51,697 nt of DNA from a virus. Its lineage: Duplodnaviria; Caudoviricetes. Both the position numbers and the translations under genes were made by a program. Under the pieces are notes generated by a model. It was not told where the DNA came from. It was given only the letters and a program-made list of their open reading frames with translations, and made no database searches. The DNA is taken from positions 1 through 51,697 of the IMG/VR virus record IMGVR_UViG_3300011336_000274; one strand, 5' to 3'. Below are positions 5,139 to 38,066 of the stretch, one piece after another. How positions within the stretch are numbered: the first letter of the stretch is position 1; each line of letters starts with the position of its first letter.

Positions 5139-6953
5139 ATGAGCGACTACAATCTACCGGACATTTACAAGCAAACCATGGGGCTGGCCAAGACCATGGT
5201 GGCCAACGATCCAAAAATGTCCATTGAAGACGCCATGGCAAAAGCAGGCAAGCACTTGGGAAAACAAGACAAGTGGGAAACAAAAACCAAACCGGGCTTA
5301 GAAAAAGTCTTTGGGGCATTAAAGCCGTCGACATTCAATCAGACTGCCGTTAATCGCTTGCGCAATACCCCGGAAGTGGTGGCACAGCGCAAACAACGCG
5401 CCAACGAGTTTCTTGACCAACCCACTGAGGCTTGGACACCACCTCGCACTGAGATACAAGCGTTTGACCGGACGCGGATCAAAGACGCGTTGGGCGGGTT
5501 TCCCGACGTAGAACAAACCAAGTTTCAGCGCGATGTGCCCCCGCGCGCCAGTCTCACGCATGTTCATTCAGTGTACGAAGACCCCGAGAATCGGGATTTG
5601 ATTAAGAAGCAGATTGCCCGGGGTCTGCCGCTAGGCGGCGAGACGTTCTACGCATCCCTGTACCCTGTCAAGCTGGCGGCCATGGAGGCGGGCATACCAC
5701 CGGAGAAGTTTGACGCGTGGATACACAGCATCGCCCCAGCGTCCGCTCGCAACTCTATTCTCAATGAAATGGCCGTGGGCCAAGCCATCCGAGACGCACA
5801 TGCCCGTGGGTCCGACTTATCGCCAGAAAGCCTAGCAAAAGTGCGTGCTGAGTACAAAGCAAAGTACGGCATTGGGTTGCCCATGATGCCGGTGCATGAG
5901 CAAGGGGTATCCAATGTTCTTCAGAACAATCTAAACCTGCGTGATTTGAGTCGAGCCAACATCCCAACAAACTACAAGATTCCTACCTATGGCACGCAAA
6001 AGGCAGGCGACTTCGCCAATTCATGGGTGGGCGACGTGCATGAAGCCACCGGCGAAACACTGGGTAGCGAATACCACCCATACTTCAAAACAGCGGGCGG
6101 GTTTAAGAACCCTGAGTATGGTGCGGCCGAAAACCACATGCTAGACATTGCCCGCGAGATGGGCATCCCCGGGGGCACCGCGCAGGCGGGGCGTTGGTTT
6201 GGTGGGGGCGAGTTGACCGGTTTGAAATCACCCCGGGGTGACGCGCTGGACCTGCTTGAAAAACAAGTGGCCTACACATTGCACCACCAAGGAATTGTGC
6301 CCACGCCTCAAGAAATACGGCGCTACACACTTCAAATGATAGGAACAGGCCAAGGGCATTTGCTGCCGTGGTTTAAAAAAGCGGGTATGCCTGACATGCG
6401 CGTGAAAAACAAAAAAGAAGGCGGTTTAATTGAAGGAGAAGAGCACCACGAGCCCAGCCACGACGAGATGCTGGCGCACATCATGCTCAAGGGCATGGCC
6501 AACCTGAAGGACGTCGGTGCCAACGAGGCGCCCAACCTGCGCATCAAGGCCTACGTGCCCCCCGCTGGCGGCCCCGGCCTGCCCGTCGGTGGCGTGGACT
6601 TCCAGCCCGAGGCGCAGGGCCAGCAGATGCTGCCGGGACAGCCGGGACAGCCTCCCGGACAACCGGGCCAGCCACCAGCGCCAGCCGGTGGCCTACCGCA
6701 GGCAGGCGGCCCACCCGGCGCGCCACCAGCGCCCCCAACGGGACAGAAACCCGGCGGCCCCCAGAGCAACATCCTGCAGATGACCCCACAGGGTCAAGCG
6801 CTGGCGGCCATGAAGCCCAACATGCCGCCCGGCATGCCGCCGCCCAAGATGGCTGGAGGCGGCAGCATTGAATACATGCGCCGCGCGCTGGCCCGCAAAG
6901 CAGCAGGCGGCACGGTCAAGGACTACATCCGCATCACGGAGCGCAAGCTATGA
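5139..6953 (+). CDS. effector-like virion-associated protein: HhH DNA-glycosylase-like domain plus Pro/Gly/Gln-rich tail with xxxGG motifs
   Basis: FY...APASARN...KIPTY...VGDVHE...Y..AE...IARExGI...AQAxxW pattern resembles HhH-GPD-like phage domains; low-complexity C-terminus. Confidence 0.55.
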   Translation: MSDYNLPDIYKQTMGLAKTMVANDPKMSIEDAMAKAGKHLGKQDKWETKTKPGLEKVFGALKPSTFNQTAVNRLRNTPEVVAQRKQRANEFLDQPTEAWTPPRTEIQAFDRTRIKDALGGFPDVEQTKFQRDVPPRASLTHVHSVYEDPENRDLIKKQIARGLPLGGETFYASLYPVKLAAMEAGIPPEKFDAWIHSIAPASARNSILNEMAVGQAIRDAHARGSDLSPESLAKVRAEYKAKYGIGLPMMPVHEQGVSNVLQNNLNLRDLSRANIPTNYKIPTYGTQKAGDFANSWVGDVHEATGETLGSEYHPYFKTAGGFKNPEYGAAENHMLDIAREMGIPGGTAQAGRWFGGGELTGLKSPRGDALDLLEKQVAYTLHHQGIVPTPQEIRRYTLQMIGTGQGHLLPWFKKAGMPDMRVKNKKEGGLIEGEEHHEPSHDEMLAHIMLKGMANLKDVGANEAPNLRIKAYVPPAGGPGLPVGGVDFQPEAQGQQMLPGQPGQPPGQPGQPPAPAGGLPQAGGPPGAPPAPPTGQKPGGPQSNILQMTPQGQALAAMKPNMPPGMPPPKMAGGGSIEYMRRALARKAAGGTVKDYIRITERKL

Positions 6954-9900
6954 CAGGGCTGTACTCGCCCATCAACAAGCTCATGGAGCAGGTCACCCGC
7001 CCCAAAGGCACTGGTGCGGAGTACATGGCCGAGCTGCAGAAGAAGCCCGGCTACAAGCCAGCCGAGGCCGAGGACCGTGACCTGCAGACGCTCATGGCGC
7101 TGCCCCAGATGGAGCGGGCCGCGTTCATGGAGAAGCTCAAGGCGCAGAAGAACAAGTTCCCGCTCAAGCAGCGCGTGCTGGAAGGCAAGCAGACGCACCA
7201 CGAGAGCTACACCCTACCCGGTGGCGAGAACTACCGGGAGATGCTGCTGCACACGCCCATGCCCGAGGGCAAGGGCTTTGAGGGCGTCCCCCAGCACTTT
7301 GGCGGCGCGCCCAACGTCATCGCAAGCATTATGGCCAAGGACCGCACCAGCCCCGAGGGCAAGAAGATACTGCACCTTGAGGAAATCCAGTCGGACTGGC
7401 ACCAAGCAGGGCGCAAGTCGGGCTACCAACCGGCGGACTTGGACAAGCAGATCGCGGAGGTCGCCGCGTGGCGCAAACGCCTTGCGCACAATGGCCGCAT
7501 GGGTGGCTACCACCTAGACCCCGAGGACCGCTTTGAGCATGACAAGGCCGTGGAGGAAGCCGAGGCCGAGCACGACAAGCTGCAGGACCTCAAGGAGATG
7601 GGCGTACCGCACGGCCCCCACGCCAAGGACTGGCACGAGCTGGCGCTCAAGGCCATGATCCAGCACGCCGCAGAGAACGGCTACGACCAGATCGCTATCA
7701 ACCACGGCAAAACAGTGGCGGACCGGCATGGCTTGAGCAAAGTTGTCAAGCATATTGATGCCACGCGATACGCATTGCCGTCATTGGGTCCAGTCGCGGA
7801 TGTCAATATAGCGGGATTAAATGGCGCGCAACTGCACGCAGAATATGGCGCAACCGAAAAAGAACTAGCAAAACTTTTGGGAAAAGAATTGGCTAAAAAA
7901 ATTATTAGCCAGCCTGAAGAATCACCACAAAGACATGAGGGTGAGGACCTTGACATCGGTGGCGAGGGCATGAAGGGGTTCTACGACAAGATGGTGCCCA
8001 CCTTCCTGAACAAGTTCGGCAAGAAGCACGGCGTGCAAGTACAGCAGGGCGCAATCGCTACTGGTGAAGAAAGCATGATTCCCGATAACGCGGGGCTTGG
8101 AATGATTCGGTCAGGCCAACCAAAGATGGCGCCCGTCCACACGTTCGACATCACCCCCGGCATGCGCGAGGACGTGCTGAAGAACGGCATCCCGCGCTAC
8201 GCTGAGGGCGGCGATGTAAATGATGCAGACCGCATGACGCCCCGCAGCCGTGGCCGCACCAGCTTCGGCGCCGCACCTCGTGGCAACCAGATCATCAAAG
8301 AGACGGGCGGCAACTGGATTGGCGGGAGCATTGAGGAGGCGCTGAAGCCCTTAATGTCACAAGGCCCAACTGAGGCAGACCGTGCGTGGTTGGAACAGCA
8401 TGCTCTACAAAATCCACAAGCTGCACGACAAGGCATAGAGGCCATTCCGCGCACTCAGGCCATTAACAACTGGATTGACCGCAACCTTGCCAACTACGTC
8501 AAGAAGCAGATGGCGACCAAGGAAGACCCAGTGCGCAAGCTGGCCGAGCAGGGCATTACGCACCTGCCGCAAGACGCCATAAACAGAGGCCAGTGGGAAT
8601 CGGATCACTTGGGAAAAATACGGCGCAGCGAAGGTTTTCCGGAGTCCGGTTTAGCTACGAACGAGGCTTCACGTGGCTGGGAAAACCTAGCCGACGAGGC
8701 AATCCAGATAACTGCACCCATAGTGGCCAACAAGGAGATGATGGAGGCCAACCCTTGGCTAGCAAAGCTGCCGCCCAACCAGTCGGTGTATCGCGCCCGC
8801 AAGGCAGACATTTCTGAACTCGGGTTTGACCACATCGTGGACGTGCTCAAACAGGACGTCGCGGCAGGCCGCATCCGCCCAGAGCAACTGAACAAGATCA
8901 GCATGGAGCAGGCGGTCCGTCGTGCCTACGAGTTCGACCAAGAGCAGGCCAAGAAGATGCGCGAAACGGCTGTCAAGGCCACCGAGGGTATGCCGGTAGT
9001 CAAGCAGTACGACACAGGGCACAAGTGGATCGAGTTGACCACGCCAAAAAACATGAAATTGCCAGAAGGGTATTCGGTTAAACCAGACCCAATTAGAAAT
9101 CAAAAAACTGGAGCCGTGGACAACAACAGCTACAGGTTGGTTAACAACGAAGGTAAGCTGGTTGGCTGGGGTCAAACTGAAGATGAAGCCGTATCTGCTG
9201 GACTTGGAAAAAAAGTTCTTAAAGACGCCCTCGAGTACGAAGGTGACACCATGGGTCACTGCGTTGGTGGGTATACCCCTGACGTGCTGGAAGGCAAGAG
9301 CCGCATCTACAGCCTGCGTGATGCCAAGGGCGAGCCACATGTGACGATTGAGACTCAGCCCTTGCGTGGTGCTGAATTGGGGCGGCACGCCGCCGACTTG
9401 CCTGATGGCGAAGATGTGGTTGTAATGAAAAACCCGCCGCATCGCATTGTCCAAATCAAAGGTAAGCAGAACCGCGCACCCGATAAAAAGTACCTACCCA
9501 TGGTGCAAGACTTTGTTAAGTCGGGCAAGTGGTCGAATGTGGGCGACGCAAAAAACGCTGGTTTGCGTAAATACGGAGACGTGTTTAACGTCAACGAGCA
9601 ACGGAACATAGAAAAGACAGGAGAACATGTTCCCGAACATGAATGGCTGACGGGGGAGGATATACAACGCCTGCACAACGCCATCACCCCGCCGGGTAAG
9701 CGCTTGAAGTACGATGCCAACGGAAACATCATCGGTAACGAAAGTGGGTACGCCGAGGGCGGCGGTGTTTCACGTGAAACAGCAAAAAGGGGCGTTGCCC
9801 ATTTTTCTCGTGGTGGCAGTGACGTAAGTCCTGCTGTTAATTTGCAGATGGCCCGCGAAGCGGCTGAACGCGAAGGTCAGCATGAAGACCCGCACACGCG

Positions 9901-10975
9901 CTCTTTGCAGCAAGGATGGGAGCACGGTTGGTATCACGGAACCACAGGGGACATACACTCATTTGCCCCCGACTATTTAGGCGAATCAACGGGCGCCCCA
10001 AGTGCCAAGCAAGGGTATTTTTTTGCGCGTGATCCAAGTACCCCGCCAGAGCACATGATGCGCCACAATCCAGATTCGGTTAACTTTTTGATCAAAGCGG
10101 GAAAGCAAGTACCACCCAATCCAACAATGGCTGGAAATGGTCCGCATACCGCAAGCAGTTATGCAGGCACTGGCGGATCGCGTGAATATAAAACAGCAAT
10201 GCGTTTGGCACATGCTGCGGAAAAAAAAGGCGATTGGGACGCACACGCAAAACACATGGAAGACGCCGAGAACGCTGAAATAAAAAGCATGCAATACCGG
10301 CAGCAACTTGTTGCTAGTCACGGCGACGCACGTGACAATATGTATGAGCAAGTAAAAAACGCATGGTATGGCGCCCACAATGCGGACAAATTTAAAAATA
10401 TGTCGCAACCCGCTTACAAGCAGTACGATGATTTATATAGCGAGTTGATGCCTTATGGTTGGCACATGAAACACTCTCCAGAACAATTTGAAAGTGTTAA
10501 ACAGCACATTAAACAGTTAGGTGATAACCCACAAACAAAACGCGCAATTAACGCAATTAACCATTATTTGTCGGTTAGCCATGAACGCAAAGCGGCTGAC
10601 GTGGAATCCGGGGCCAATGTAATCCCAGCGGCGTTGCGGTATTCAAACCCCATGTACCACGATTTTGAAGGTAAGCCGTACCGAGAACAATCGTACAACG
10701 ATTTAATTAAAGAAGCCAAACTAAAAGGCCATGATGCTTTAATTCTAAAAAACACTTTTGATCCGGGCGGTAGTACCTCTGGGTCAAAAATGATTGATGT
10801 GGGCGTGATGTTTCACCCCAAACAAATTCGCAGTAAATTTGCGGCGTTTCACCCAGACCGCGTCCATGAGCCGGATTTACTAGCCGCTAAAGGCGGCGTA
10901 GTCAAAGAGAAAGTTACAATCTCGCCTGACATGGACGTCATGCAGTACGAGCTGATCAACAGGAAAGCAAAATAA
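6950..10975 (+). CDS. large polyvalent protein: EEIQSDWHQ domain, PcfJ-like domain, ADP-ribosyltransferase-like domain
   Basis: LEEIQSDWHQ motif; YEGDTMGHCVGGY...IYSLRD...PHVTIE...QIKGKQN (PcfJ-like); WYHGT...GYFF...ASSYA...NVIP...GHDALI...QIRSKFAAF (ART-like). Confidence 0.75.
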   Translation: MTGLYSPINKLMEQVTRPKGTGAEYMAELQKKPGYKPAEAEDRDLQTLMALPQMERAAFMEKLKAQKNKFPLKQRVLEGKQTHHESYTLPGGENYREMLLHTPMPEGKGFEGVPQHFGGAPNVIASIMAKDRTSPEGKKILHLEEIQSDWHQAGRKSGYQPADLDKQIAEVAAWRKRLAHNGRMGGYHLDPEDRFEHDKAVEEAEAEHDKLQDLKEMGVPHGPHAKDWHELALKAMIQHAAENGYDQIAINHGKTVADRHGLSKVVKHIDATRYALPSLGPVADVNIAGLNGAQLHAEYGATEKELAKLLGKELAKKIISQPEESPQRHEGEDLDIGGEGMKGFYDKMVPTFLNKFGKKHGVQVQQGAIATGEESMIPDNAGLGMIRSGQPKMAPVHTFDITPGMREDVLKNGIPRYAEGGDVNDADRMTPRSRGRTSFGAAPRGNQIIKETGGNWIGGSIEEALKPLMSQGPTEADRAWLEQHALQNPQAARQGIEAIPRTQAINNWIDRNLANYVKKQMATKEDPVRKLAEQGITHLPQDAINRGQWESDHLGKIRRSEGFPESGLATNEASRGWENLADEAIQITAPIVANKEMMEANPWLAKLPPNQSVYRARKADISELGFDHIVDVLKQDVAAGRIRPEQLNKISMEQAVRRAYEFDQEQAKKMRETAVKATEGMPVVKQYDTGHKWIELTTPKNMKLPEGYSVKPDPIRNQKTGAVDNNSYRLVNNEGKLVGWGQTEDEAVSAGLGKKVLKDALEYEGDTMGHCVGGYTPDVLEGKSRIYSLRDAKGEPHVTIETQPLRGAELGRHAADLPDGEDVVVMKNPPHRIVQIKGKQNRAPDKKYLPMVQDFVKSGKWSNVGDAKNAGLRKYGDVFNVNEQRNIEKTGEHVPEHEWLTGEDIQRLHNAITPPGKRLKYDANGNIIGNESGYAEGGGVSRETAKRGVAHFSRGGSDVSPAVNLQMAREAAEREGQHEDPHTRSLQQGWEHGWYHGTTGDIHSFAPDYLGESTGAPSAKQGYFFARDPSTPPEHMMRHNPDSVNFLIKAGKQVPPNPTMAGNGPHTASSYAGTGGSREYKTAMRLAHAAEKKGDWDAHAKHMEDAENAEIKSMQYRQQLVASHGDARDNMYEQVKNAWYGAHNADKFKNMSQPAYKQYDDLYSELMPYGWHMKHSPEQFESVKQHIKQLGDNPQTKRAINAINHYLSVSHERKAADVESGANVIPAALRYSNPMYHDFEGKPYREQSYNDLIKEAKLKGHDALILKNTFDPGGSTSGSKMIDVGVMFHPKQIRSKFAAFHPDRVHEPDLLAAKGGVVKEKVTISPDMDVMQYELINRKAK

Positions 10976-13476
10976 TGGCTGACACCTACGACAACCAAGA
11001 AGACGACGACCTTGAGGCCAACGAAGACGGCTCCGTTGATGTAGAGCTGCCTGAAGACGTCTCTGACGTTACCGAGATGCCCGACGGCTCTGCGGTCGTC
11101 AGCATGGAGGAGACCAGCGGCCCCGAAGAGTCGCCTGACTTCTACTCCAACTTGGCCGAGAGCATCGACACCTACGACCTGACCAACCTTGGCCTGCGCT
11201 ACGTCAACCTGCTGGAGAAGGACAAGAACGCCCGCGAGGAGCGCGACAAGCAGTACGAGGAGGGCATCCGGCGCACCGGTATGGGCAAGGACGCCCCCGG
11301 TGGAGCCAACTTCCTCGGCGCAAGCCGTGTGGTCCATCCGGTGATGGCCGAGGGCTGCGTGGACTTCGCAAGCCGCGCCATCAAGGAGCTGTTCCCGCCA
11401 GACGGCCCCGTGCGCACCAAGATCATCGGCAAGGTCGACGACCTCAAGCAAGAGCGCGCCGAGCGCAAGCGTGACTTCCTGAACTGGCAGATCACCGGGC
11501 AGATCGAGGAGTTCCGAGACGAGCAGGAGCAGATGCTGACCCAGTTACCACTGGGAGGCTCACAATACCTCAAGCTCTGGTACGACGAGACCAAGAAGCG
11601 CCCCTGCGTGGAGTTCCTGCCCATCGACCGCATGATCCTGCCGTTTGCGGCCAGCAACTTCTACACCGCCCAGCGCGCTGCCGAGGTGCATGAGATCACC
11701 GAGTGGGAGTACGACCGGCGCGTGGCCAGCGGCATGTACAAGGACGGCACGCACGTGGTCTCTGGCCAAGAGCCCGAGCAGACCCGCGCCCAGAAGGCCA
11801 ACGACAAGATTGAGGGCCGCAAGTTCCAAGACAACGAGGACGGCCTGCGCAAGGTGTTCCACATCTACACGTGGCTGGAGCTCGAAGACGACAAGGAGTC
11901 CGGTGGCGAGATGGCCCCGTACATCATGATGGTGGAGGAGCAGTCCAGCGAGGTGATCGGGCTGTACCGCAACTGGGAAGAGGGCGACGAGACGATGACC
12001 AAGCTCGATTGGATCATCGAGTTCAAGTTCATCCCGTGGCGCGGCGTGTTCGCCATCGGCCTGCCGCACCTGATCGGGGGCCTGAGCGCGGCCTTGACCG
12101 GTGCCCTGCGCGCGCTGCTGGACTCGGCCCACATCAACAACGCCGCCACAATGCTCAAGCTCAAGGGCGCCAAGATCAGCGGCCAGACCCAGCAGATCGA
12201 GGTCACGCAGGTGGCCGAGATCGAGGGCGCACCCGGTGTGGACGACATCCGCAAGATCGCCATGCCCATGCCGTTCAACCCGCCCAGCCAAGTGCTGTTC
12301 GAGCTGCTGGGCTGGCTGGACAGCGCCGCCAAAGGCGTGGTGACCACGTCCGAGGAGAAGATCGCCGACGTGAACGCCAACGCGCCCGTGGGCACCACGC
12401 AGGCGCTGATCGAGCAGGGCGCTGCCGTCTACTCCGCGATCCACGCCCGGCTGCACCAGTCGCAGGCGCGCCTGATCAAGGTGCTGTGCCGCCTAAACCG
12501 CTGGCACTTCAAGGAGATGCGCAAAAGCGACATGGTGGCCGACTTGGAGATCGAGCGCGAGGACTTCGAGAAGAACACCGACGTCATCCCGGTCAGCGAC
12601 CCGCACATCTTCAGCGAGACCCAGCGCATGGCGCAAATGCAGGCCGTGCTGGCCCGCTCGGACGCCAAGCCCGACCTGTACGACGCCAAGGCCGTGGAGG
12701 AGCGCTTCCTCAAGCAGATCAAGATACCCAACGTCAGCGAGCTGCTCAAGGCGGTCCCTGAACCCGAGCAGCGCACGCTGGCCGACGAGAACGCGGCCAT
12801 GTCCATGGGCCACCCGGCATACGCCTACATCCAGCAAGACCACATCGCCCACATCCAAGGGCACCTGATGTTCGGCATGGACCCGTCGTTTGGCGCAAAT
12901 GCCTTTATCGCCCCGGCCTTCCTGCCCAACGCGGTCGAGCACATCAAGCAGCACATGACGTTGTGGTACTTGAACCGCATGAACGGCTACGTGACTAACC
13001 TGCGCGGCGGCAAGCCCGTGGACGACTACGAGAACCCCAAGCTCACGGCCATCATTGACAAGCTCTACGCCACCGTTGGCCAGCACGTTGCCTTGGACAG
13101 CGAGCAGGTGTTCCAGCAGATTCTGCCCCAGCTCCAACAGCTCCAGCAGACTTTGCAGGCCAACGCCAAGCCCGCCCCGCTGCCGCCTGATGCCCAAGTG
13201 GTCAAGGACACGGCGATGGCCGAGACCCAGCGCAAGGCCGCCAAGGACAAGCAGGACGGCGAGATCGCGCAAGCCAAGCTGCAGGACAGCCAGATGCGTG
13301 GCCAAGCCGAGATGCAGGCCAACACCCAGCGCGATCAGCAGGATGCGCAACTACAATTACAAATCGCGCAGATTAATAATCAGGCGCGCGTTGAGATCGA
13401 GAACGCCAAGTTAACCCACCAGACCATACAGAGTATGGCGCAACCACCCGAAGGAGCCCCTTATGGCAACGTCTAA
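10975..13476 (+). CDS. portal protein
   Basis: 833 aa after terminase; acidic N-terminus, HPVMAExxVDF, PVRTKIIG, APVGTTxALIEQG, Gln-rich coiled-coil C-terminus like P22-type portals. Confidence 0.9.
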   Translation: MADTYDNQEDDDLEANEDGSVDVELPEDVSDVTEMPDGSAVVSMEETSGPEESPDFYSNLAESIDTYDLTNLGLRYVNLLEKDKNAREERDKQYEEGIRRTGMGKDAPGGANFLGASRVVHPVMAEGCVDFASRAIKELFPPDGPVRTKIIGKVDDLKQERAERKRDFLNWQITGQIEEFRDEQEQMLTQLPLGGSQYLKLWYDETKKRPCVEFLPIDRMILPFAASNFYTAQRAAEVHEITEWEYDRRVASGMYKDGTHVVSGQEPEQTRAQKANDKIEGRKFQDNEDGLRKVFHIYTWLELEDDKESGGEMAPYIMMVEEQSSEVIGLYRNWEEGDETMTKLDWIIEFKFIPWRGVFAIGLPHLIGGLSAALTGALRALLDSAHINNAATMLKLKGAKISGQTQQIEVTQVAEIEGAPGVDDIRKIAMPMPFNPPSQVLFELLGWLDSAAKGVVTTSEEKIADVNANAPVGTTQALIEQGAAVYSAIHARLHQSQARLIKVLCRLNRWHFKEMRKSDMVADLEIEREDFEKNTDVIPVSDPHIFSETQRMAQMQAVLARSDAKPDLYDAKAVEERFLKQIKIPNVSELLKAVPEPEQRTLADENAAMSMGHPAYAYIQQDHIAHIQGHLMFGMDPSFGANAFIAPAFLPNAVEHIKQHMTLWYLNRMNGYVTNLRGGKPVDDYENPKLTAIIDKLYATVGQHVALDSEQVFQQILPQLQQLQQTLQANAKPAPLPPDAQVVKDTAMAETQRKAAKDKQDGEIAQAKLQDSQMRGQAEMQANTQRDQQDAQLQLQIAQINNQARVEIENAKLTHQTIQSMAQPPEGAPYGNV

Positions 13477-14038
13477 ACGTATTGCTGTTTACGTCGTCAC
13501 AAACACGGTGAATGGCAAGCAGTACGTTGGCATCACCAACAACCTTTTAAAGAGGTGGAGCGCCCACAGGAAGGCCGAGGGGCGCTGCCCGGCCTTGCAC
13601 AATGCTTTCAAGAAATATGGCATTGACAAATTTGTGTTCACGCACCTGATGGACGTTTTTGATTTGGAGCATGCCAAGGAAATTGAACAGCAATTGATTA
13701 TTGAAAAAGGCTGCAAAGTCCCTAATGGCTACAACGTGTCCGATGGGGGTGAAAGCCGTCAAGGCGTTCCCGCTTGGAACAAAGGAATGACCGGCGGAAC
13801 TTGGCCCGAGAACAGAAAAGGGAAACCAAGCCCGTTGAAGGGCACCAAAATGTCAGAGGAGCAAAAGGCTAAACTGCGTAAGCCAAAGTCCCCTGAGCAT
13901 GCTGCAAAAATTCGCGCAGCCAAACAAAGCGAAGAGGGCCGCAAGGCAAACAGCAGAGCCGGAATTGCAAAAGCAAAGAAAGCCGCTGATCAATTGCTAC
14001 TTAACCTTTCAAAAGGAATTGAAAATGTCAAAAGTTGA
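13463..14038 (+). mobile_element. GIY-YIG homing endonuclease gene (NUMOD3-like tail)
   Basis: AVYVVTNTVNGKQYVG...R...H...E...GYN motif; AT-richer than flanks. Confidence 0.85.
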
Positions 14039-14402: not shown

Positions 14403-14420
14403 TTGTCGATAGGAGTGAGT

Positions 14421-14876
14421 ATGAGTCAAGAAAAGGTTCCCTACATCGTAGGGACGCAACAGGCGTCTGACCCTGCCGAGCTGGCATGGGCATTTCCAGA
14501 CGTACCGGCAGGTCAGGCCCCCTTGGGTGGCCGGGTCATTGTCCAACTTCGCCGCATCAAAAAGAACGCGGGAAAGATCATCTTGGTGGAGGAAACCAAG
14601 GAGAACGAGAAGTGGAACAACATGATCGGACGTGTCGTCGCAATCGGCCCACTGGCTTACCGCAACAGGGACACCATGGCAACATGGCCCGAGGGTAGCT
14701 GGGCGCAGATCGGCGACTTTGTCCGAGTACCGCGTTGGGGAGGGGATCGCTGGGAGCGGCCCGTCGTCGGCGAGGAGAACGGAGACCTTAACCCGGTCCT
14801 GTTCATGACCATCAACGACCATGAGGTAATCAGTAAAATTACTGATGACCCTTTAAGTTTTAAGGTGTATGTATGA
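14421..14876 (+). CDS. groES: GroES/Cpn10-like co-chaperonin
   Basis: PLGGRVIV...GKIIL...GRVVAIGP...GDFV...INDHEVI pattern; AGGAG SD. Confidence 0.85.
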   Translation: MSQEKVPYIVGTQQASDPAELAWAFPDVPAGQAPLGGRVIVQLRRIKKNAGKIILVEETKENEKWNNMIGRVVAIGPLAYRNRDTMATWPEGSWAQIGDFVRVPRWGGDRWERPVVGEENGDLNPVLFMTINDHEVISKITDDPLSFKVYV

Positions 14877-15400
14877 CCCAAAAAGAATACTACGCAAAAA
14901 ACAAAGATGTTTTAAATGAAAAACGTCGGGAGCGATACGCCGCCAATGCTTCCTTGCGAACTCGTATTAAAGACCGCAACGATGCGACTCAAGTTAAATA
15001 TCGTGAGACACAAAAAACGTCTCCAAAAATTAACTTGTCTCGAATGGCAACTCAAGCCAAGCAGCGTGAAGGGGGCGACATTTCCACGGAGTTTTTACTT
15101 AACATGTGGATTGAGCAGGACGGGAAATGCGCGTTATCTGGACTTCAAATGGTTTGGGGGCAGGGTGTTGTAAACGCAATGAACGTATCCATCGATCGTG
15201 TTGATCAAACTCGCGGCTACTACACAGACAACGTAAGGTTGGTTTGTTGGTGCGTAAACTCATTTAGGCAAAAAATGAATGATAGCGAGCTGTTGTACGT
15301 AGCTTCCGCATTGGTGGCGACGTTGCAATCAAAACAAAACACCAGAGAAGTCATAGCAAAGGTCACTGACGACCCGCTGTCCTTCAAAGCCTACGTCTAA
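14873..15400 (+). mobile_element. HNH-like homing endonuclease gene fused to the displaced groES 3' end
   Basis: QDGKCALSG...SIDRVD...GY..DNVRLVC..VN motif; low GC; last 17 aa duplicate the GroES C-terminus. Confidence 0.85.
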
Positions 15401-15409
15401 GGAGATACC

Positions 15410-17508: not shown

Positions 17509-18423
17509 ATGGCAGCACCAATGAGAAGTACGGACTTCCGAAGCATCGTTGAACCAATTCTGAACGAATGCTTTGATGGAGTCTATGACCAGCGCGCCGA
17601 CGAGTGGTCAAAGGTTTTCCGCGAGGAAGACGGTATCCCACGTAACTACCACGAAGAGCCCGTCCTGTACGGTTTCGGCGCGGCACCCCAACTGCCTGAC
17701 GGCACACCGGTGACGTACCAACAAGGTGGTGTTCTGTTCCTGAAGCGCTACGTCTACAAGGTCTATGGTCTGGCTTTTGCCTTGACCAAGGTCCTCGTGG
17801 AAGATGGCGACCACATCCGTCTGGGTCAGGTGTACGCACGTCACTTGGCACAGTCTCTGGTGGAAACCAAGGAACTGCTGTCCGCCAACGTCCTGAATAC
17901 GGCCTTCAACAGCTCGTATCCCGGCGGCGACGGCGTGTCGTTGATCAACACCTCTCACCCCATTGTGAACGGTGTGTTCAGCAACCAGTTGGCCACCGCC
18001 GCTGTGCTTTCGCAAACCTCCCTTGAGCAGATGCTTATCCAAGTACGCCAAGCTGTAGACAACAACGGCAAGAAAATCCGTTTGGTGCCTAAACAGATGG
18101 TCGTGGCTCCGGGTAACGTCTTCCAGTCGGAAGTGCTGCTGAAGTCGGTCCTGCGCGCAGGCAACGCCAATAACGACGTCAACCCCATCAAGTCCATCGG
18201 CTTGCTGGACGGCGGCGCTACTGTGCTGAGTCGTCTGACCAGTGCCAACGCATGGTGGGTCCAGACCGACGCTCCCGAGGGCCTCAAGCTCTTGATGCGT
18301 CGTCGTCTGGAGAAGACCATGGAAGGCGACTTCGAGACCGACTCGATGCGCTACAAGGCCACTGAGCGTTACGACGTGGGATTTACCGATCCTCGCTGCC
18401 TCTACGGCACGCCGGGTATTTGA
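17509..18423 (+). CDS. major capsid protein
   Basis: 304 aa, strong SD and highly expressed codon style, GFGxAP...YGLAFxLTxxxxED...DFETDSMRYKATERY motifs of Mu gpT-like HK97-fold capsids. Confidence 0.9.
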   Translation: MAAPMRSTDFRSIVEPILNECFDGVYDQRADEWSKVFREEDGIPRNYHEEPVLYGFGAAPQLPDGTPVTYQQGGVLFLKRYVYKVYGLAFALTKVLVEDGDHIRLGQVYARHLAQSLVETKELLSANVLNTAFNSSYPGGDGVSLINTSHPIVNGVFSNQLATAAVLSQTSLEQMLIQVRQAVDNNGKKIRLVPKQMVVAPGNVFQSEVLLKSVLRAGNANNDVNPIKSIGLLDGGATVLSRLTSANAWWVQTDAPEGLKLLMRRRLEKTMEGDFETDSMRYKATERYDVGFTDPRCLYGTPGI

Positions 18424-20175: not shown

Positions 20176-21375
20176 ATGGGCCAATTTAAACCAATGGTGA
20201 AGATGGAAACCACCGAGCCTTCGGTGATCCTGAAGCTGAAAAAGGGTGGCCACGTTTCGTCCGGTAAAGACGAGAACGGCCACACCAACATGAAGGGCAT
20301 GGCTTTCAAGGCCAAGTATTCTGAAGAGGCTTGCGAAGGCGACTCTCCCAAGAAGCCATCCATGTCGGATCGCCGCAAGGCCATGTCCGGCTCTATGATG
20401 AAAAACGGCGGCAAGGCCGAGAAGAAGGCTATGGGCGGCATGATGGGCGCGCCAGCGATGGCTGCACCCATGGCGGCCCCGAGGGGTGCACGTATGGACC
20501 CCCGCAAAGCGGCCATGCTCAAGGCCATGATGTCTCGCAAGGCCGCTATGGGCGCGCCTGCGGCGCCCATGGCCCCTATGGCGGCACCCGGCGGCATGCC
20601 CGCCATGAAAAAGGGCGGTAAGGCTGGTGACAAGGCGCAGGACAAGGCCATGATCATGAAGGCCTTCAAACAGCACGACGCGCAAGAGCACAAAGGTGGT
20701 GACACCAAGCTCAAGCTGGCTACCGGCGGCCTGACCAACCCCATGAAAACGGGCGGTTCTACTAACGCCTTTCAGAACACCAAGACCGTGAAGATGAAGA
20801 CCGCTAAAGGCTACCAAAAGTACGCTGACGGTGGTGCGGTAAGTGGAAATGCCTTGAAAACCGTGAACATGGTTACCACGCCGGGTACTGAAAAGTACGC
20901 TACCGGAGGCGTCGTGAACGGTATGGCCACGGGTGGTCTGACCAACCCCATGAAAAAAGGCGGGAAAGTTAACACCGCAAAAATTGATCCCGGTTACGAG
21001 CGGTATGCCACTGGCGGGCTAACCAATCCGCTGAAAAAAGGCGGTGCCGCAAAAAAGCATTTCGCCACGGGGGGCAGTGTTAGCACTGGCCATGCCGTGG
21101 CAATGCCGAAGCGGCCTGTTTCCCAGCCGGTAAGCACCAATCGTATCGCTGGTACCTTCAAGAAGGGTGGAACGGTTGATTCTGAGATGGTAGACGCCTC
21201 CAAAGGCGCCTACGATAAGGCAATTGGGCCGGGGGAAGACGAGATGGAGATGGCAAAGGCTTTCCGCGACCCAGTGGGAAGCGTAAAGAAATTGCTAGGC
21301 ATTGGCCCCAAGCTAACGGAAAAACAGGTCATCCACACCGGTGGGTACAAAAAAGGCGGCAACGCCAAGTGCTGA
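20176..21375 (+). CDS. basic low-complexity protein with about 15 xxxGG repeats
   Basis: Repeated KKGG/ATGG/ADGG; three ATGGLTNP(M/L)KxGG units; TAAGGAG SD. Confidence 0.8.
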   Translation: MGQFKPMVKMETTEPSVILKLKKGGHVSSGKDENGHTNMKGMAFKAKYSEEACEGDSPKKPSMSDRRKAMSGSMMKNGGKAEKKAMGGMMGAPAMAAPMAAPRGARMDPRKAAMLKAMMSRKAAMGAPAAPMAPMAAPGGMPAMKKGGKAGDKAQDKAMIMKAFKQHDAQEHKGGDTKLKLATGGLTNPMKTGGSTNAFQNTKTVKMKTAKGYQKYADGGAVSGNALKTVNMVTTPGTEKYATGGVVNGMATGGLTNPMKKGGKVNTAKIDPGYERYATGGLTNPLKKGGAAKKHFATGGSVSTGHAVAMPKRPVSQPVSTNRIAGTFKKGGTVDSEMVDASKGAYDKAIGPGEDEMEMAKAFRDPVGSVKKLLGIGPKLTEKQVIHTGGYKKGGNAKC

Positions 21376-21408: not shown

Positions 21409-21421
21409 ATTGGAGAACGAT

Positions 21422-21826
21422 ATGGCTGATGCAGTAACGAGTCAAACCCTATTTGATGGCGAGCGCGTGGCCATCATGAAATTCACAAACATCAGTGATG
21501 GCACTGGTGAAACTGCGGTTTTGAAGGTAGATGTTTCGGCACTAACGCCAAGCGGCTCTGGCAAAACTTGTAGCGCGGTAACAGTTACAAAGATTTACAT
21601 TGCCAATCACGGCATGGAAGTCAGAATGTTTTGGGACGCCACAACGGATGTGCCGTTCTTTCTATCGTCGCCCGGAGCAACGCAGACGCTTGATATGAGC
21701 GCTTTTGGGGGCATTACCAACAACGGCGGTACTGGCGTCACTGGTGACATCATGTTCAGCACGGCTGACGCCACCGCAGGTGATTCTTACTGGTGTATCT
21801 TGGAGATGATCAAGGAGTATGCGTAA
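21422..21826 (+). CDS. virion structural protein (MADAVTSQT... family)
   Basis: GGAG SD, ATG 21422; TNISDGTGExAVxKVDVSAL motif. Confidence 0.7.
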   Translation: MADAVTSQTLFDGERVAIMKFTNISDGTGETAVLKVDVSALTPSGSGKTCSAVTVTKIYIANHGMEVRMFWDATTDVPFFLSSPGATQTLDMSAFGGITNNGGTGVTGDIMFSTADATAGDSYWCILEMIKEYA

Positions 21827-22230
21827 TGCATGCCAAATTGAAAGCAGGCGGCTTGTACGCCAACATCCACGCCAAGCAAAAGCGCATTGCCGAGGGCTCG
21901 GATGAGCGCATGCGCAAGCCCGGTAGCAAGGGCGCGCCAACTGCCGAGGCTTTCCGGAAGTCTGCAAAAACCAAGAAGATGGCCGATGGCGGCATTGCCA
22001 GCCTTGGCGGCATGACCTCCAGCACGCCCAACACGCCCACCGTAGCCTCGCGCGATAACAGCCGAGAGCTGCAGCCCCCACAAAAGCCGCTGGGTAACCC
22101 CCAGCAGATGGCCGATGGCGGCTCTAAGGGTGGGGATGGCGAGCAGTTTTATGGGTACAAAAAGGGTGGCCAAGTAACCACCCGGCGCGTGTCTACGGGC
22201 AGCTCGTCCAAGAAATCTTCCAACTGGTGA
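21826..22230 (+). CDS. small basic protein with four xxxGG motifs (GLYANIHAK family)
   Basis: TAATG coupling, AAGGAG upstream; LKAGG, MADGG x2, YKKGG. Confidence 0.7.
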   Translation: MHAKLKAGGLYANIHAKQKRIAEGSDERMRKPGSKGAPTAEAFRKSAKTKKMADGGIASLGGMTSSTPNTPTVASRDNSRELQPPQKPLGNPQQMADGGSKGGDGEQFYGYKKGGQVTTRRVSTGSSSKKSSNW

Positions 22231-22235: not shown

Positions 22236-22496
22236 ATGGCGAAGAAGGACAAGACCCCATCCCTAGCCGTAGGCCGAGGCGAGAAGCTGTCCGTTGCCAA
22301 GGGCGCGGGCCTTACCGAAAAGGGGCGCGCCAAGTACAATCGGGAGACGGGCTCGAACCTCAAGGCCCCCCAGCCCAAGGGCGGCGCCCGCAAGGACTCG
22401 TTTTGCGCCCGCATGAGCGGCGTGGTAGAGCATTCCAAGGGTGACGCGCCTCGCGCGAAGGCCTCATTAAAACGCTGGGACTGCCCCGGCTGGTAA
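22236..22496 (+). CDS. small basic phage protein (DUF6321-like)
   Basis: GLTxKGRAKYNRETGSNLKAP...RKxSFCARMSG...W-x-C motif. Confidence 0.7.
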   Translation: MAKKDKTPSLAVGRGEKLSVAKGAGLTEKGRAKYNRETGSNLKAPQPKGGARKDSFCARMSGVVEHSKGDAPRAKASLKRWDCPGW

Positions 22497-27326: not shown

Positions 27327-27335
27327 GGACAGACC

Positions 27336-28505: not shown

Positions 28506-28507
28506 TT

Positions 28508-28663: not shown

Positions 28664-28664
28664 C

Positions 28665-29980: not shown

Positions 29981-29989
29981 AGGGCCACC

Positions 29990-30849: not shown

Positions 30850-30851
30850 TC

Positions 30852-36342: not shown

Positions 36343-36344
36343 AT

Positions 36345-38066
36345 ATGCCACAAGGCGGGCCAGTAAATAATCCAGCGCCAATGACTGCATTGACGCCCGG
36401 AGCGGTATATCAAGCCGGTACTAGCGGCGGGCAGGGGGGCCCTACGGCTGGTTTTTACCGGCCAAAAACAAATCAAGAACTAGCCCGCGACATAGGGGCG
36501 CAAGATGCCGCTACCATAGCGGCTGGCCCCCCAAAACCCGGCATGGTTTTTTATACTGGGGCAACGTGGGACCCCATGTCAGACCGCACACCAACCGCCG
36601 GGGGTTGGGGGTACCCCCAGAGCAATTTTGATGCTCTTGTTGGTAACATTGGTGGTATAGCGAAAACAGTGGCCCCAATAGTTTTAACAGCACTAGGCGC
36701 AAACTATGTTCTTCCTGAATTGATGGGTGTCGCTGGTACGGCTGGCGGTGCTGCTGGTGCAGGCGCTGGCGCGGGGGCTGCTGGTACTGGGGCCGCTGGC
36801 GCGGGTGCTGCTGGCGCGGGTGCTGCGGGGGCTTTAACCCCCGCCGCACTTGAGTCTTTGATTGGTACAGCCGGATACGGGGCAAGTGCGGCTGCGGGCG
36901 CTGGTTCTGGCGCTGGTGCTTATGCCGCTGGTCTTGGGGCCGCAGGTATGGGCGCCGCTGCGCCATCGGGCTACTCCACTGCTGCTGCTGATCTGTTAGG
37001 GGGCATGGGTGTTGCTGCGCCAACAAGCACGGGGGGTTTGGCGTCTGTAAATGAGATGGTAGCTTCCGGCATGTCCCCGGGGTCCGTAGGAGCTGCTGGC
37101 GCAGCGGGGACGGCTTTTACACCCGCAGAGTTGGCTGCAGCTACCGGCACCCTTCCCGCAGCAACATCTATCAATGAGATGGTAGCCTCTGGCATGTCCC
37201 CGGGGTCTGCTGGTGCGCAGGGCGCGGTGGATGGCACTTTAACTGGAAGTGCCTTAGATACTGCGTATGGTGTTAACAACGCCGCCAGTACCCTATCCAC
37301 GCTTGACGTCTTAAACGCCATTCAGAAGGCCAAGGGCTTGTTTGATAAAGGCGCAAAGATGGGGACTTCCGGTGATGGAACCGGTTCTTCCGATTCTTCT
37401 GGCACCGGAATAGATTCGGCCTTGGCTCGCGTTGGTAAAATGGGTTCGGGCGATATGTTGCAACGCCCCATCCAGCAGCTATACAACAACACCAACTCCC
37501 CGAACTTTTCCACTGGGGGCTCGGTCGACGACATTACGCGGTCCTTGCTGGCTGATTCCGCGTCGGACAGCGCGGCCCCTGTTGCGGGGACAACCTCAAA
37601 GGTGGGCGATGTGGGCAAAGGCGGCCCGTTACAGCGCGCGGTGCAGCAGATGGAACGGGATTATTTGAAGGAATTTGCAGAAGGCGGCCACAACGTGATC
37701 CCCGAGCTTGTGTCGCTGATCCGGTCGCGGGCTACGCCGCAGGACCGCTCCCACCCCCATTACGACGGCGTGCCGCTGCTGCGCACGGGCGGACTGCCGG
37801 GCCCCGGTGGAAAGTACGTTGAGGGCAAGGGCGACGGCACCAGCGACGACATCGCGGCCATGCTGGCCAACGGCGAGTACGTCTTCAGCGCCGACGTGGT
37901 GGCGGCCTTGGGCAACGGCTCCAACAAGGCCGGAGCCCAAGAGCTCGACAGGATGGTGCGGGCCATCCGGTCGCGGGCACGGTCGGCGCCCCCCGACAAG
38001 TTGCCCCCGGATGCCAAGTCCCCGCTAGAATACATGCAGTCCTCAAAGGGGAAAAAATATGGCTGA
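36345..38066 (+). CDS. putative internal virion/ejection protein with C-terminal tape-measure-type GDGTSDDI...NGEYV domain
   Basis: Gly/Ala-rich hydrophobic middle; FSTGG, FAEGG, LRTGG motifs; GKGDGTSDDIAAMLANGEYVFSADVV. Confidence 0.7.
   Translation: MPQGGPVNNPAPMTALTPGAVYQAGTSGGQGGPTAGFYRPKTNQELARDIGAQDAATIAAGPPKPGMVFYTGATWDPMSDRTPTAGGWGYPQSNFDALVGNIGGIAKTVAPIVLTALGANYVLPELMGVAGTAGGAAGAGAGAGAAGTGAAGAGAAGAGAAGALTPAALESLIGTAGYGASAAAGAGSGAGAYAAGLGAAGMGAAAPSGYSTAAADLLGGMGVAAPTSTGGLASVNEMVASGMSPGSVGAAGAAGTAFTPAELAAATGTLPAATSINEMVASGMSPGSAGAQGAVDGTLTGSALDTAYGVNNAASTLSTLDVLNAIQKAKGLFDKGAKMGTSGDGTGSSDSSGTGIDSALARVGKMGSGDMLQRPIQQLYNNTNSPNFSTGGSVDDITRSLLADSASDSAAPVAGTTSKVGDVGKGGPLQRAVQQMERDYLKEFAEGGHNVIPELVSLIRSRATPQDRSHPHYDGVPLLRTGGLPGPGGKYVEGKGDGTSDDIAAMLANGEYVFSADVVAALGNGSNKAGAQELDRMVRAIRSRARSAPPDKLPPDAKSPLEYMQSSKGKKYG

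What the first reader, a model, noticed from the sequence alone, without database searches (positions are those of the whole stretch)
6411..37793. Genome-wide [YFML]-[AK]-x-G-G motif: candidate virion cargo tag / polyprotein cleavage system
Seen: about 29 copies (including a few near-matches) in five late proteins. Gene 5139: KKEGG 6411, MAGGG 6849, KAAGG 6897. Gene 6950: YAEGG 8198, YAEGG 9749, FSRGG 9803, AAKGG 10883. Gene 20176: about 15. Gene 21826: 4. Gene 36345: FSTGG 37506, FAEGG 37674, LRTGG 37779. In the 1341-aa protein the motifs fall between the EEIQSD, PcfJ-like and ART-like domains and after the last one. By eye, strict matches are absent from terminase, portal, capsid and replication proteins. 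Established: T4 internal proteins use a short capsid-targeting sequence and protease maturation; diglycine is a common protease cut site. Inference: a shared signal for loading cargo into the head and/or cutting polyproteins into separately ejected effectors.
Basis: partly seen in the sequence, partly recalled or inferred. Interest (0 to 1): 0.88.

Follow-up and report, generated by a model that had tools for sequence, protein, structure and literature searches.

The report
Junction motif in phage cargo polyproteins
A five-residue motif (bulky hydrophobic, Ala/Lys, any, Gly, Gly) marks nearly every joint between modules in a set of modular late proteins of this phage and its many uncultured relatives, which suggests, but does not prove, that these proteins are cut into pieces there.

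Summary
The window has 22 strict [YFML][AK]xGG copies against 3.6 expected: 14 in the disordered Lys/Gly-rich protein 20176-21375 and 4 in 21826-22230. The few copies in genes 5139, 6950 and 36345 are not significant alone. Their orthologues make them so: 10 seen/1.3 expected and 21/2.0.

The motif is conserved in all 80 related phage loci fetched. It is absent from portal and capsid orthologues, and near expectation in adaptor orthologues. It is a junction element:
- 86 of 86 joints between mini-domains in 95 small proteins carry it (77 strict, 9 relaxed).
- The same mini-domains stand alone without it in other phages.
- Window gene boundaries 3537|5139|6950 correspond to motif-bearing joints in fused orthologues.
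- Selection acts on the peptide, not the DNA.

My best reading (about 0.42) is a proteolytic processing site for packaged polyproteins, analogous to the adenovirus and ASFV GG-X sites. Separate conserved terminal peptides would act as anchors. No protease was found, which is the main weakness.

The main rivals are an uncleaved docking motif and a passive hinge. I rate it a new variant of a known kind, interest 0.65.

The parts
20176..21375 (+). Repeat protein, 399 aa, net charge +38. It has 14 strict motif copies starting at nt 20236, 20398, 20605, 20716, 20743, 20821, 20896, 20923, 20950, 21004, 21031, 21061, 21157 and 21346. It has a conserved N-terminal 20-mer before the first motif and a C-terminal cap of GG + NAKC.
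   Evidence: The family has at least 4904 hits and 361 representatives, none with a functional name. AF2 gives mean pLDDT 52, with the motif-rich stretch 173-307 almost entirely below 50. There is no Pfam, PHROG, NCBIfam or PDB match.
21826..22230 (+). Small modular protein, 134 aa. A phrog_16028 mini-domain (residues 9-52) is followed by a motif-bearing tail. Strict motifs start at nt 21838, 21979, 22108 and 22156. The protein ends in ..KKSSNW.
   Evidence: Orthologues are strings of mini-domains joined by the motif.
22236..22496 (+). Stand-alone DUF6321 mini-domain gene with no motif. In relatives the same domain is fused behind the motif (…GG-PSLAV…).
   Evidence: Pfam PF19846, E=4e-17. Comparison.
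3537..5129 (+). Pre-portal cargo-type protein with no strict motif. In relatives G001 and G005 its domain is an internal module of giant proteins (2047 and 1418 aa as called), followed there by the motif.
5139..6953 (+). Pre-portal modular protein, 604 aa. Motif-type sites are KKEGG 6411-6425, MAGGG 6849-6863 and KAAGG 6897-6911. The conserved domain (about residues 4-434) ends at the first site.
   Evidence: Orthologues hold 10 motifs against 1.3 expected.
6950..10975 (+). Pre-portal polyvalent-type protein, 1341 aa. The sites are YAEGG 8198-8212 (end of the N-terminal domain), YAEGG 9749-9763 and FSRGG 9803-9817 (after the PcfJ-like domain), and AAKGG 10883-10897. A conserved 25-aa C-terminal tail follows (10898-10972).
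   Evidence: Pfam PcfJ E=7e-7, and ART-PolyVal only at E=0.8. Homology blocks end at the motifs. Orthologues hold 21 motifs against 2.0 expected.
36345..38066 (+). Late Gly/Ala-rich protein, 573 aa, with FSTGG 37506, FAEGG 37674 and LRTGG 37779. The last site directly precedes a conserved C-terminal module (residues 477-567, nt 37773-38045).
   Evidence: LRTGG aligns with strict motifs in G001 and G003 and a relaxed one in G002. The C-terminal module hits tape-measure PHROGs weakly. Enrichment across the whole protein's orthologues is weak (9 seen, 3.9 expected).
10975..13476 (+). Portal protein. Context only: it is motif-free.
   Evidence: phrog_1216 E=8e-18. 0 motifs in 37 orthologues.
17509..18423 (+). 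Major capsid protein. Context only: it is motif-free and 87-99% identical across 45 relatives.
   Evidence: Pfam Phage_capsid_4.

Best explanation
The motif PHI-[AK]-x-G-G (usually followed by x-V) is a module separator in a set of late proteins that are probably packaged. These are the pre-portal polyvalent proteins, a disordered basic repeat protein and strings of tiny basic domains encoded between the capsid and adaptor genes, and the C-terminal part of late proteins.

I think it is most likely an endoproteolytic processing site at or next to the Gly-Gly. Under this model, whole polyproteins enter the procapsid through separate conserved end peptides:
- the N-terminal 20-mer of the repeat protein;
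- the C-terminal helix tail of the pre-portal proteins;
- the short Cys- or Trp-ended C-terminal caps.
The polyproteins are then cut at the joints into individual modules. The repeat protein would be reduced to short basic peptides.

Shown here: the enrichment, the conservation, the junction position, the disorder, and selection at the peptide level. Inferred only: packaging, cleavage, and the anchor role of the end peptides.
For: 1. Junction rule. In 95 distinct small ORFs with recognisable mini-domains, all 86 inter-domain joints carry the element: 77 strict, 9 with K/H/A at the hydrophobic position, 0 without GG.

2. The modules are independent units elsewhere. They are stand-alone tiny ORFs without the motif in Synechococcus phage S-SBP1, Limnohabitans phage DC33 and DSL-LC05. 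The same is true of the window's DUF6321 gene.

3. Gene boundaries match joints. A 2047-aa protein in G001 and a 1418-aa protein in G005 fuse the domains of window genes 3537, 6950 (residues 415-897) and 5139, in a different order. Each of the three internal domain boundaries has a strict motif next to it, and the 5139-like block at the C-terminus ends at a relaxed one.

4. In 32 pre-portal proteins, 42% of 62 internal C-terminal ends of homology blocks lie within 25 aa of a strict motif. For random positions the figure is 10%.

5. Logo over 1351 GG sites: position -3 is Y/M/F/L in 61% (Y and F are each 1.8% of the background), -2 is K/A in 68%, and +2 is V/A in 46%.

6. Synonymous codons vary freely, so selection is on the peptide.

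7. The context is disordered.

8. Distinct conserved end peptides are set off by a motif.

9. Precedent. The adenovirus protease cuts core and capsid precursors at (M/I/L)XGG|X (PMC4246237, passages read). ASFV pS273R cuts structural polyproteins after Gly-Gly-X (PMC10308890, passages read). Polyvalent phage proteins are predicted to be processed into units (PMC5512222, passages read).
Against: - No protease was found. Pfam, PHROGs and NCBIfam show none among the window proteins scanned (Pfam and PHROGs on most of them, NCBIfam on ten).
- The conserved 182-aa head-module protein 16363-16911 has no fold match to a known protease.
- The only genes present in all six motif-bearing genomes and absent from the motif-free relatives RW and CRP-901 are the repeat protein and two tail-fibre-like genes.
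- Pro follows GG in 22 of 115 motifs of the small proteins. From recall, most proteases disfavour Pro at that position.
- Many proteins carry a motif only 2-7 residues from the C-terminus. Motifs can lie 5-10 residues apart. Neither is needed for simple polyprotein processing.
- There are no proteomic data. 'Proteom' occurs 0 times in the HTVC023P preprint.
Confidence: 0.42

Rival explanations
1. An uncleaved short linear docking motif, or 'sticker'. Each copy binds a site on a shared partner (capsid interior, scaffold, portal, DNA or a chaperone). The repeat protein would then be a multivalent binder, and the other proteins would be recruited through the same motif.
For: - Copy number is high and variable: 7-17 per repeat protein in 80 of 80 loci.
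- The context is disordered and basic, as is typical of linear motifs.
- Copies occur at extreme C-termini, which suits binding better than cutting.
- No protease is needed, and none was found.
- Capsid protein is 87-99% identical across relatives while the repeat protein is 42-83% identical. That fits a fixed receptor with a fluid ligand.
Against: - Stand-alone modules in the same lineage lack the motif: 22 of 95 small ORFs are DUF6321 alone, and the window's own gene is one such case.
- The motif sits strictly between modules, not once per protein.
- No lineage-specific partner exists. The neighbouring 19187-type gene is missing in 17 of 68 loci that hold both the capsid and repeat genes.
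- Other conserved end peptides are available as anchors.
Confidence: 0.28
2. A passive flexible hinge. The Gly-Gly joint lets modules move or be threaded through the portal and tail on ejection. Its uniform sequence would reflect common descent and repeated re-use of the same linker during module shuffling, not recognition by any factor.
For: - It is always between modules.
- Gly-Gly is flexible and lies in a low-confidence region.
- Module order is shuffled between genomes.
Against: - A hinge does not need a conserved bulky hydrophobic at -3 (61% against about 14% for Y+F+M+L in the background), Ala/Lys at -2, and Val at +2.
- The DNA encoding it is not conserved, so it is not a recombination joint kept by descent.
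- The motif persists in lineages as distant as DSL-LC04 and pelagiphage HTVC027P, with about 30% portal identity.
- A hinge does not explain arrays of 14 copies or C-terminal copies.
Confidence: 0.12
3. A structural tandem repeat, such as a beta-roll or solenoid unit like the RTX nonapeptide, or simply a compositional artefact of Gly/Lys-rich sequence.
For: - Some copies in the window protein are 9 residues apart.
- The protein is 15% Gly and 14% Lys.
Against: - Composition-preserving shuffles give 0.36 copies against 14 seen.
- Spacing is irregular: 5 to over 70 residues, with clusters at 9-13 and 31-45.
- AF2 finds no fold in the motif region.
- Single copies at domain ends in other proteins cannot be solenoid units.
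Confidence: 0.03
4. A nucleotide-level or translational signal: an internal ribosome-binding site plus start for the downstream module, or a ribosome-skipping peptide.
For: - Frequent MKEGG joints could in principle be encoded by purine-rich, Shine-Dalgarno-like DNA.
- Val is common two residues after GG.
Against: In the window's 22 copies, the Gly codons are mostly GGC/GGT, Ala is GCC/GCT, and Val at +2 is GTT/GTA (1 GTG). There is no shared purine-rich core. From recall, ribosome skipping of the 2A type is not known in bacteria.
Confidence: 0.02

Closest known systems
Adenovirus maturation by the adenovirus protease (AVP), sites (M/I/L)XGG|X and (M/I/L)XGX|G (PMC4246237, passages read)
   Same: A Gly-Gly site with an upstream Met/Leu-type residue. 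It occurs many times in basic core proteins and in capsid-interior proteins of a dsDNA virus. From recall, a short basic Cys-containing C-terminal peptide (pVIc) lies just after one such site; this resembles the Cys/Trp-ended caps seen here.
   Different: Here the hydrophobic residue is one position further from the Gly-Gly, and Tyr/Phe are common. Ala/Lys is fixed at -2. No adenain-like (clan CE) protease is detectable. This is a tailed phage.
ASFV structural polyproteins pp220/pp62, cut after Gly-Gly-X by pS273R (PMC10308890, passages read)
   Same: Structural polyproteins whose joints are Gly-Gly sites. The products build the inside of the virion.
   Different: No SUMO-protease-like enzyme was found here. 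The modules here are tiny basic domains and effector-type domains, not shell proteins. Cleavage is unproven.
Polyvalent proteins of phages and conjugative elements (PMC5512222, passages read)
   Same: Large multi-domain proteins in late operons next to virion genes. Domain order is shuffled between genomes, and they are predicted to be delivered with the DNA and processed into units. The window's 6950 protein has a PcfJ-like domain and a very weak ART-PolyVal hit.
   Different: That paper assigns processing to an MPTase (zincin) domain, and none is detectable here. A search of its text for 'linker' and 'glycine' gave 0 hits, so a shared joint motif is not described there.
T4 head-internal proteins: capsid-targeting sequence plus gp21 cuts at (L/I)xE, and degradation of the scaffolding core to peptides (recalled, no paper read)
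   Same: The logic is an end peptide that brings a protein into the prohead, followed by a short cut site. One core protein has many sites and is reduced to peptides.
   Different: The site sequence differs. T4 encodes a recognisable prohead protease, and T4 cargo proteins are single-domain.
Encapsulin cargo-loading peptides (recalled, no paper read)
   Same: Short Gly-containing peptides in disordered regions direct proteins into an HK97-fold shell.
   Different: Those peptides are terminal, one per cargo. Here the motif lies between modules and is missing from stand-alone modules.

Membership tests
Substrates of a clan CE (adenain / SUMO-protease-like) viral maturation protease | Site consensus with the hydrophobic residue at P4 and Gly-Gly at P2-P1 | tested here: not met
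   The logo puts the hydrophobic residue three positions before the first Gly, i.e. P5 if the cut follows GG. It would be P4 only if the cut falls between the two Gly.
Substrates of a clan CE (adenain / SUMO-protease-like) viral maturation protease | A protease of that clan encoded by the virus | tested here: not met
   No peptidase family appears in Pfam, PHROGs or NCBIfam among the window proteins scanned, which was most but not all of them. A divergent enzyme cannot be excluded.
Substrates of a clan CE (adenain / SUMO-protease-like) viral maturation protease | Demonstrated cleavage at the sites | not testable with these tools
   No virion proteomics exist for this lineage. 'Proteom' occurs 0 times in the HTVC023P preprint.
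Polyvalent proteins (Iyer et al. 2017) | Several unrelated effector-type domains in one polypeptide, with order shuffled between genomes | tested here: met
   The 3537-, 5139- and 6950-type domains occur as separate genes or fused in different orders. PcfJ-like domain.
Polyvalent proteins (Iyer et al. 2017) | Location among late/virion genes | tested here: met
   They lie between the terminase and portal genes.
Polyvalent proteins (Iyer et al. 2017) | MPTase (zincin) domain for self-processing | tested here: not met
   There is no MPTase-PolyVal hit at E<=1. The only two HExxH strings lie in linker-like sequence.
T4-type capsid-targeting sequence system | N-terminal targeting peptide ending in an (L/I)xE cut site, plus a gp21-type protease | tested here: not met
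   The motif differs and no prohead protease family was found. A conserved N-terminal 20-mer before the first motif does exist in the repeat protein.
Regular tandem structural repeat (beta-roll/solenoid) | Constant period and a predicted repeat fold | tested here: not met
   Spacing ranges from 5 to over 70 residues. pLDDT is almost entirely below 50 over 173-307.
Encapsulin-like cargo-loading peptide | Terminal peptide needed by each cargo, binding the shell protein | tested here: inconclusive
   Stand-alone modules lack the motif, which argues against it. Binding could not be assessed.

The most novel reading that the evidence does not exclude
These phages, including relatives of the very abundant HTVC023P-type pelagiphages, mature their packaged proteins by a Gly-Gly-directed polyprotein processing system. 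Its protease would belong to no described family, or would be borrowed from the host. The short basic Cys/Trp-ended peptides released from the C-termini would act as cofactors or anchors, as pVIc does for the adenovirus protease. This would be a tailed-phage counterpart of adenovirus/ASFV core maturation.
Probability: 0.12. Interest if true: 0.88.

Novelty: new variant of a known kind. Interest (0 to 1): 0.65.

Why it matters
If the joints are cut, this is a polyprotein strategy in tailed phages. One anchor peptide would carry several effector or DNA-binding modules into the head, and a short Gly-Gly site would then free them.

That would give a simple rule for finding packaged cargo and its module borders in thousands of uncultured freshwater and marine phage genomes. 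The repeat-protein family alone has at least 4904 hits. It would also point to an undiscovered protease.

Low-copy versions of the motif occur in the cultured pelagiphage HTVC027P. Its group is reported as the most abundant in marine viromes (bioRxiv 10.1101/2019.12.14.876532, passages read). So the idea can be tested on a real virion.

If the joints are not cut, the motif is still a strongly selected linear motif with no known reader.

Tried and rejected
- **Internal ribosome-binding site or start codon encoded by the motif.** Rejected by the codon table.
- **Neighbouring protein 19187-20164 as obligatory partner.** Its orthologue is missing in 17 of 68 loci that hold both the capsid and repeat genes. 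It has no PDB sequence match.
- **Protein 16363-16911 as the protease.** It has invariant Cys109, His61 and His130. AF2 gives pLDDT 67.5. There is no PDB fold match at E<=0.001. The BFVD matches are all uncharacterised, and ESM Atlas shows only unnamed viral clusters. It also occurs in motif-free phage RW.
- **The 3537 domain as a universal enzyme.** It is present in only 2 of 5 complete relatives, and there as an internal module.
- **The 'ATP-dependent protease' annotated in DSL-LC04.** No homologue in the window or in G001-G005.
- **HExxH scan.** Two hits, both in linker-like sequence.
- **A lineage-specific portal C-terminal domain.** It is a Gln-rich coiled-coil-like tail in both RW and the window.
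- **Complex prediction.** Capsid protein + scaffold-like protein + repeat-protein residues 270-340 returned 'no answer', score 0.00. This is neither for nor against binding.
- **PDB sequence searches** with the repeat protein and the 6950 protein found nothing.
- **Literature.**
  - A search for six literal motif strings returned 12 papers, none relevant.
  - 'Prohead protease' + 'cleavage site' + 'Gly-Gly' returned 0 papers.
  - These two searches are my only basis for saying the motif is not in print.
  - Supplementary files of papers were closed and could hold virion proteomics that I did not see.
- **Tool problems.**
  - One script call returned no answer. I repeated it without the BLAST step.
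- **The 36345 orthogroup.** Its apparent enrichment (9 seen, 3.9 expected) comes mostly from YAGGGGG runs in Gly-rich fibre-like proteins. I count only the site before the conserved C-terminal module as real.


Full report
**What the window is.** The window is a virus record of 51,697 bases with a podophage-like late operon on the + strand.
- Large terminase 2185-3603 (Pfam Terminase_6N/6C).
- Three large pre-portal genes: 3537-5129, 5139-6953 and 6950-10975.
- Portal 10975-13476 (phrog_1216).
- A GroES-like gene 14403-14876.
- A scaffold-like acidic coiled-coil protein 15410-16360, then two small conserved genes.
- Major capsid protein 17509-18423 (Phage_capsid_4), then gene 19187-20164.
- The repeat protein 20176-21375, gene 21410-21826, the small motif protein 21826-22230, and a DUF6321 gene 22236-22496.
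- An SU10-type adaptor 22506-23579, then tail and late proteins.
- Replication genes lie on the - strand.

The closest named relatives by portal protein are an uncultured Manatee Spring phage MW202545.1 (65%), Caulobacter phages of the RW type (50%), Roseobacter phages CRP-901/902 (36%) and pelagiphages HTVC023P/027P (about 30%).

The signal comes from two proteins: 14 copies in the 399-aa protein 20176-21375 (0.36 expected) and 4 in the 134-aa protein 21826-22230 (0.06 expected). The copies in 5139 (1), 6950 (2) and 36345 (1) are not significant within the window (P=0.19, 0.035 and 0.42).

**Conservation.** The repeat protein belongs to a very large family with no functional name.
- At least 4904 proteins match at E<=0.001 among 8000 scored candidates. 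The only names among the 120 listed are 'hypothetical protein'.
- There are 361 representatives at 50% identity.
- A scan of IMG/VR found 556 relatives, and I kept the best 80 loci. In all 80, the orthologue has 7-17 strict copies.

A logo over 1351 GG sites in these orthologues shows:
- Y/M/F/L at -3 in 61% (Y and F are each 1.8% of the composition);
- K/A at -2 in 68%;
- K/T at -1;
- V/A at +2.

I grouped all + strand ORFs of the 80 loci by their best window protein.

| Orthogroup | Seen | Expected |
|---|---|---|
| Repeat protein | 772 | 27.8 |
| Small protein (21826) | 105 | 4.2 |
| 5139 | 10 | 1.3 |
| 6950 | 21 | 2.0 |
| Scaffold-like (one N-terminal site, distant members only) | 9 | 0.7 |
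| Portal | 0 | 2.4 |
| Capsid | 0 | 2.9 |
| 19187 protein | 0 | 5.9 |
| Adaptor | 3 | 2.4 |

Five complete relatives (G001-G005) hold 11-25 copies each against 3-4 expected. The copies are confined to the same kinds of protein. That call used crude gene calls. In the window these dropped gene 21826-22230 and kept one likely spurious antisense ORF that carries a match.

**What kind of element is it? A joint between modules.** Four lines of evidence agree.

First, in the 6950 family the homology blocks end at the motif. The N-terminal domain (window residues 1-427) ends at YAEGG 417 and at the matching YAEGG/YAKGG/YKTGG in L004, L009, L029, L040 and L046. The PcfJ-like block ends at YAEGG 934 and at matching sites in L049, L056 and L063.

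Second, in two complete relatives the domains of window genes 3537, 6950 (415-897) and 5139 are fused in one reading frame (2047 aa in G001, 1418 aa in G005). Their order differs between the two. Each of the three internal domain boundaries has a strict motif next to it, and the 5139-like block at the C-terminus ends at a relaxed one. So the stop/start boundaries 3537|5139|6950 of the window correspond to motif-bearing joints elsewhere. Over 32 distinct pre-portal proteins, 42% of 62 internal C-terminal ends of homology blocks lie within 25 aa of a strict motif, against 10% for random positions. For N-terminal ends the figures are 26% of 98 against 9%. These block ends are not independent of each other.

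Third, the small proteins encoded between the repeat gene and the adaptor are strings of tiny basic domains in many combinations. The domains include a DUF3008-like MPSKSPAQ domain (name recalled, not tested), the phrog_16028 domain, DUF6321 and others. In 95 distinct small ORFs with at least one recognisable domain there are 86 joints. Of these, 77 carry the strict motif, 9 carry a relaxed one (K, H or A in place of the hydrophobic residue), and none lacks GG.

Fourth, the same domains are stand-alone tiny ORFs without the motif in Synechococcus phage S-SBP1, Limnohabitans phage DC33 and DSL-LC05. This also happens within the lineage: 22 of the 95 ORFs are DUF6321 alone, as is the window's gene 22236-22496.

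For gene 36345, the near-match LRTGG at 37779 aligns with strict motifs in G001 and G003 and a relaxed one in G002. It directly precedes a conserved C-terminal module. The rest of that orthogroup's apparent enrichment is YAGGGGG in Gly-rich proteins, and I do not count it.

**Level of selection and physical context.**
- The 22 window copies use varying synonymous codons and share no nucleotide core. Val at +2 is GTT or GTA, not a start codon. Selection therefore acts on the peptide.
- AF2 with a 45-row alignment gives the repeat protein a mean pLDDT of 52. There are a few helices, and the motif-rich stretch 173-307 is almost entirely below 50.
- The protein has a net charge of +38.
- Motif spacing is irregular, from 5 to over 70 residues, so this is not a regular structural repeat.

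**Phyletic range.** Caulobacter phage RW and Roseobacter phage CRP-901 lack three things: the motif enrichment, the repeat protein, and the motif-bearing pre-portal proteins (RW has none between terminase and portal). Yet they share most of the head module: scaffold-like protein, the 16925 protein, capsid and adaptor in both, and GroES-like genes annotated in both; the 16363 and 21410 proteins each match in only one of the two.

More distant genomes do carry the motif at low copy number.
- DSL-LC04: three copies at the N-terminus of its pre-portal PcfJ-like protein, and copies in small Lys-rich proteins.
- The cultured pelagiphage HTVC027P: gp42, gp44, gp46 and gp47.

DSL-LC04 is a metagenome-assembled genome (PMC10611076, search listing only).

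**Other conserved end features.**
- The repeat protein starts with an almost invariant 20-mer before its first motif.
- It nearly always ends in GG + 1-4 residues + Cys.
- The small modular proteins mostly end in ..SCW..SSNW or the DUF6321 ending CPGW.
- The last pre-portal protein ends, after its last motif, in a conserved helix-like tail of the type ..D.M.YEL...KKAK.

So the motif also sets off short conserved end peptides from the body of each protein.

**Mechanism.** The pattern is a short conserved peptide at every joint of multi-module proteins whose modules are separate gene products in relatives. That is the signature of polyprotein cut sites.

Gly-Gly sites with an upstream Met/Leu are used by the adenovirus protease on basic core proteins and capsid-interior proteins (PMC4246237). 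Gly-Gly-X sites are used by ASFV pS273R on structural polyproteins (PMC10308890). Iyer et al. predicted that polyvalent phage proteins are processed into units, by an MPTase domain (PMC5512222). The end peptides fit a T4-like logic (recalled): an anchor brings the precursor into the prohead, then cuts release the modules. That logic would also explain why fusing modules pays, because one anchor serves several modules. I put this reading at 0.42.

Its weaknesses are real.
- No protease was found by Pfam, PHROGs or NCBIfam among the window proteins scanned, which was most but not all of them.
- The best-conserved small head protein, 16363-16911, shows no protease fold.
- Nothing that could be a protease is specific to the motif-bearing genomes.
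- Pro follows GG in 22 of 115 motifs of the small proteins.
- Copies lie 2-7 residues from C-termini and 5-10 residues apart.

These points favour the main rival, an uncleaved docking motif (0.28). That rival in turn struggles with the motif-free stand-alone modules and with the strict junction position. A passive hinge (0.12) does not explain the conserved hydrophobic, Ala/Lys and Val positions, or the persistence of the motif at about 30% portal identity.

**Verdict.**
- The 'cargo tag' half is not supported.
- I found no description of this joint motif in two literature searches or in the polyvalent-protein paper.
- I rate it a new variant of a known kind, with interest 0.65.

Noticed in passing
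window 13463-14038, 14873-15400, 18489-19157, 23576-24217, 44552-45073: Five homing-endonuclease-type genes (GIY-YIG-like and HNH/endonuclease VII-like) are inserted between conserved structural and replication genes. Most have no orthologue in the five complete relatives.
   Followed up: partly
window 17509-18423 versus 20176-21375: The capsid protein is 87-99% identical across 45 relatives. The adjacent repeat protein is only 42-83% identical in much the same loci, so evolutionary rates contrast sharply within one operon.
   Followed up: partly
window 21361-21372 (end of the repeat protein) and orthologues in L003-L082: The repeat protein almost always ends in GG + 1-4 residues + a terminal Cys. 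The small modular proteins mostly end in a terminal Trp (..SCW..SSNW, CPGW). The role of these caps is unknown.
   Followed up: partly
window 10898-10972 and 6864-6950: A conserved C-terminal helix-like tail (..D.M.YEL...KKAK type) follows the last motif of the protein just upstream of the portal gene in many relatives. It may be a portal or procapsid anchor.
   Followed up: partly
window 16363-16911: A 182-aa head-module protein has many invariant polar residues (His61, Cys109, His130, Asp72, Asn110, Glu111 and others) and a fold with no PDB match. Its function is unknown.
   Followed up: yes
window 37773-38045: The C-terminal module of the 573-aa late protein weakly matches PHROG tape-measure families, over roughly residues 488-526. 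It is conserved at the C-termini of otherwise different late proteins in G001-G004.
   Followed up: partly
window 42868-49229 (- strand): The replication module (SNF2-type helicase, family A DNA polymerase, Enc34-type ssDNA-binding protein, DUF2800 nuclease) is shared with Caulobacter phage RW. It is not shared with the five complete relatives that share the structural module, so the genome is a mosaic.
   Followed up: no
window 14403-14876: A GroES-like co-chaperonin gene lies between the portal and scaffold-like genes. It is conserved in 39 related loci, and GroES-like genes are also annotated in RW, CRP-901, DSL-LC04 and HTVC027P.
   Followed up: no
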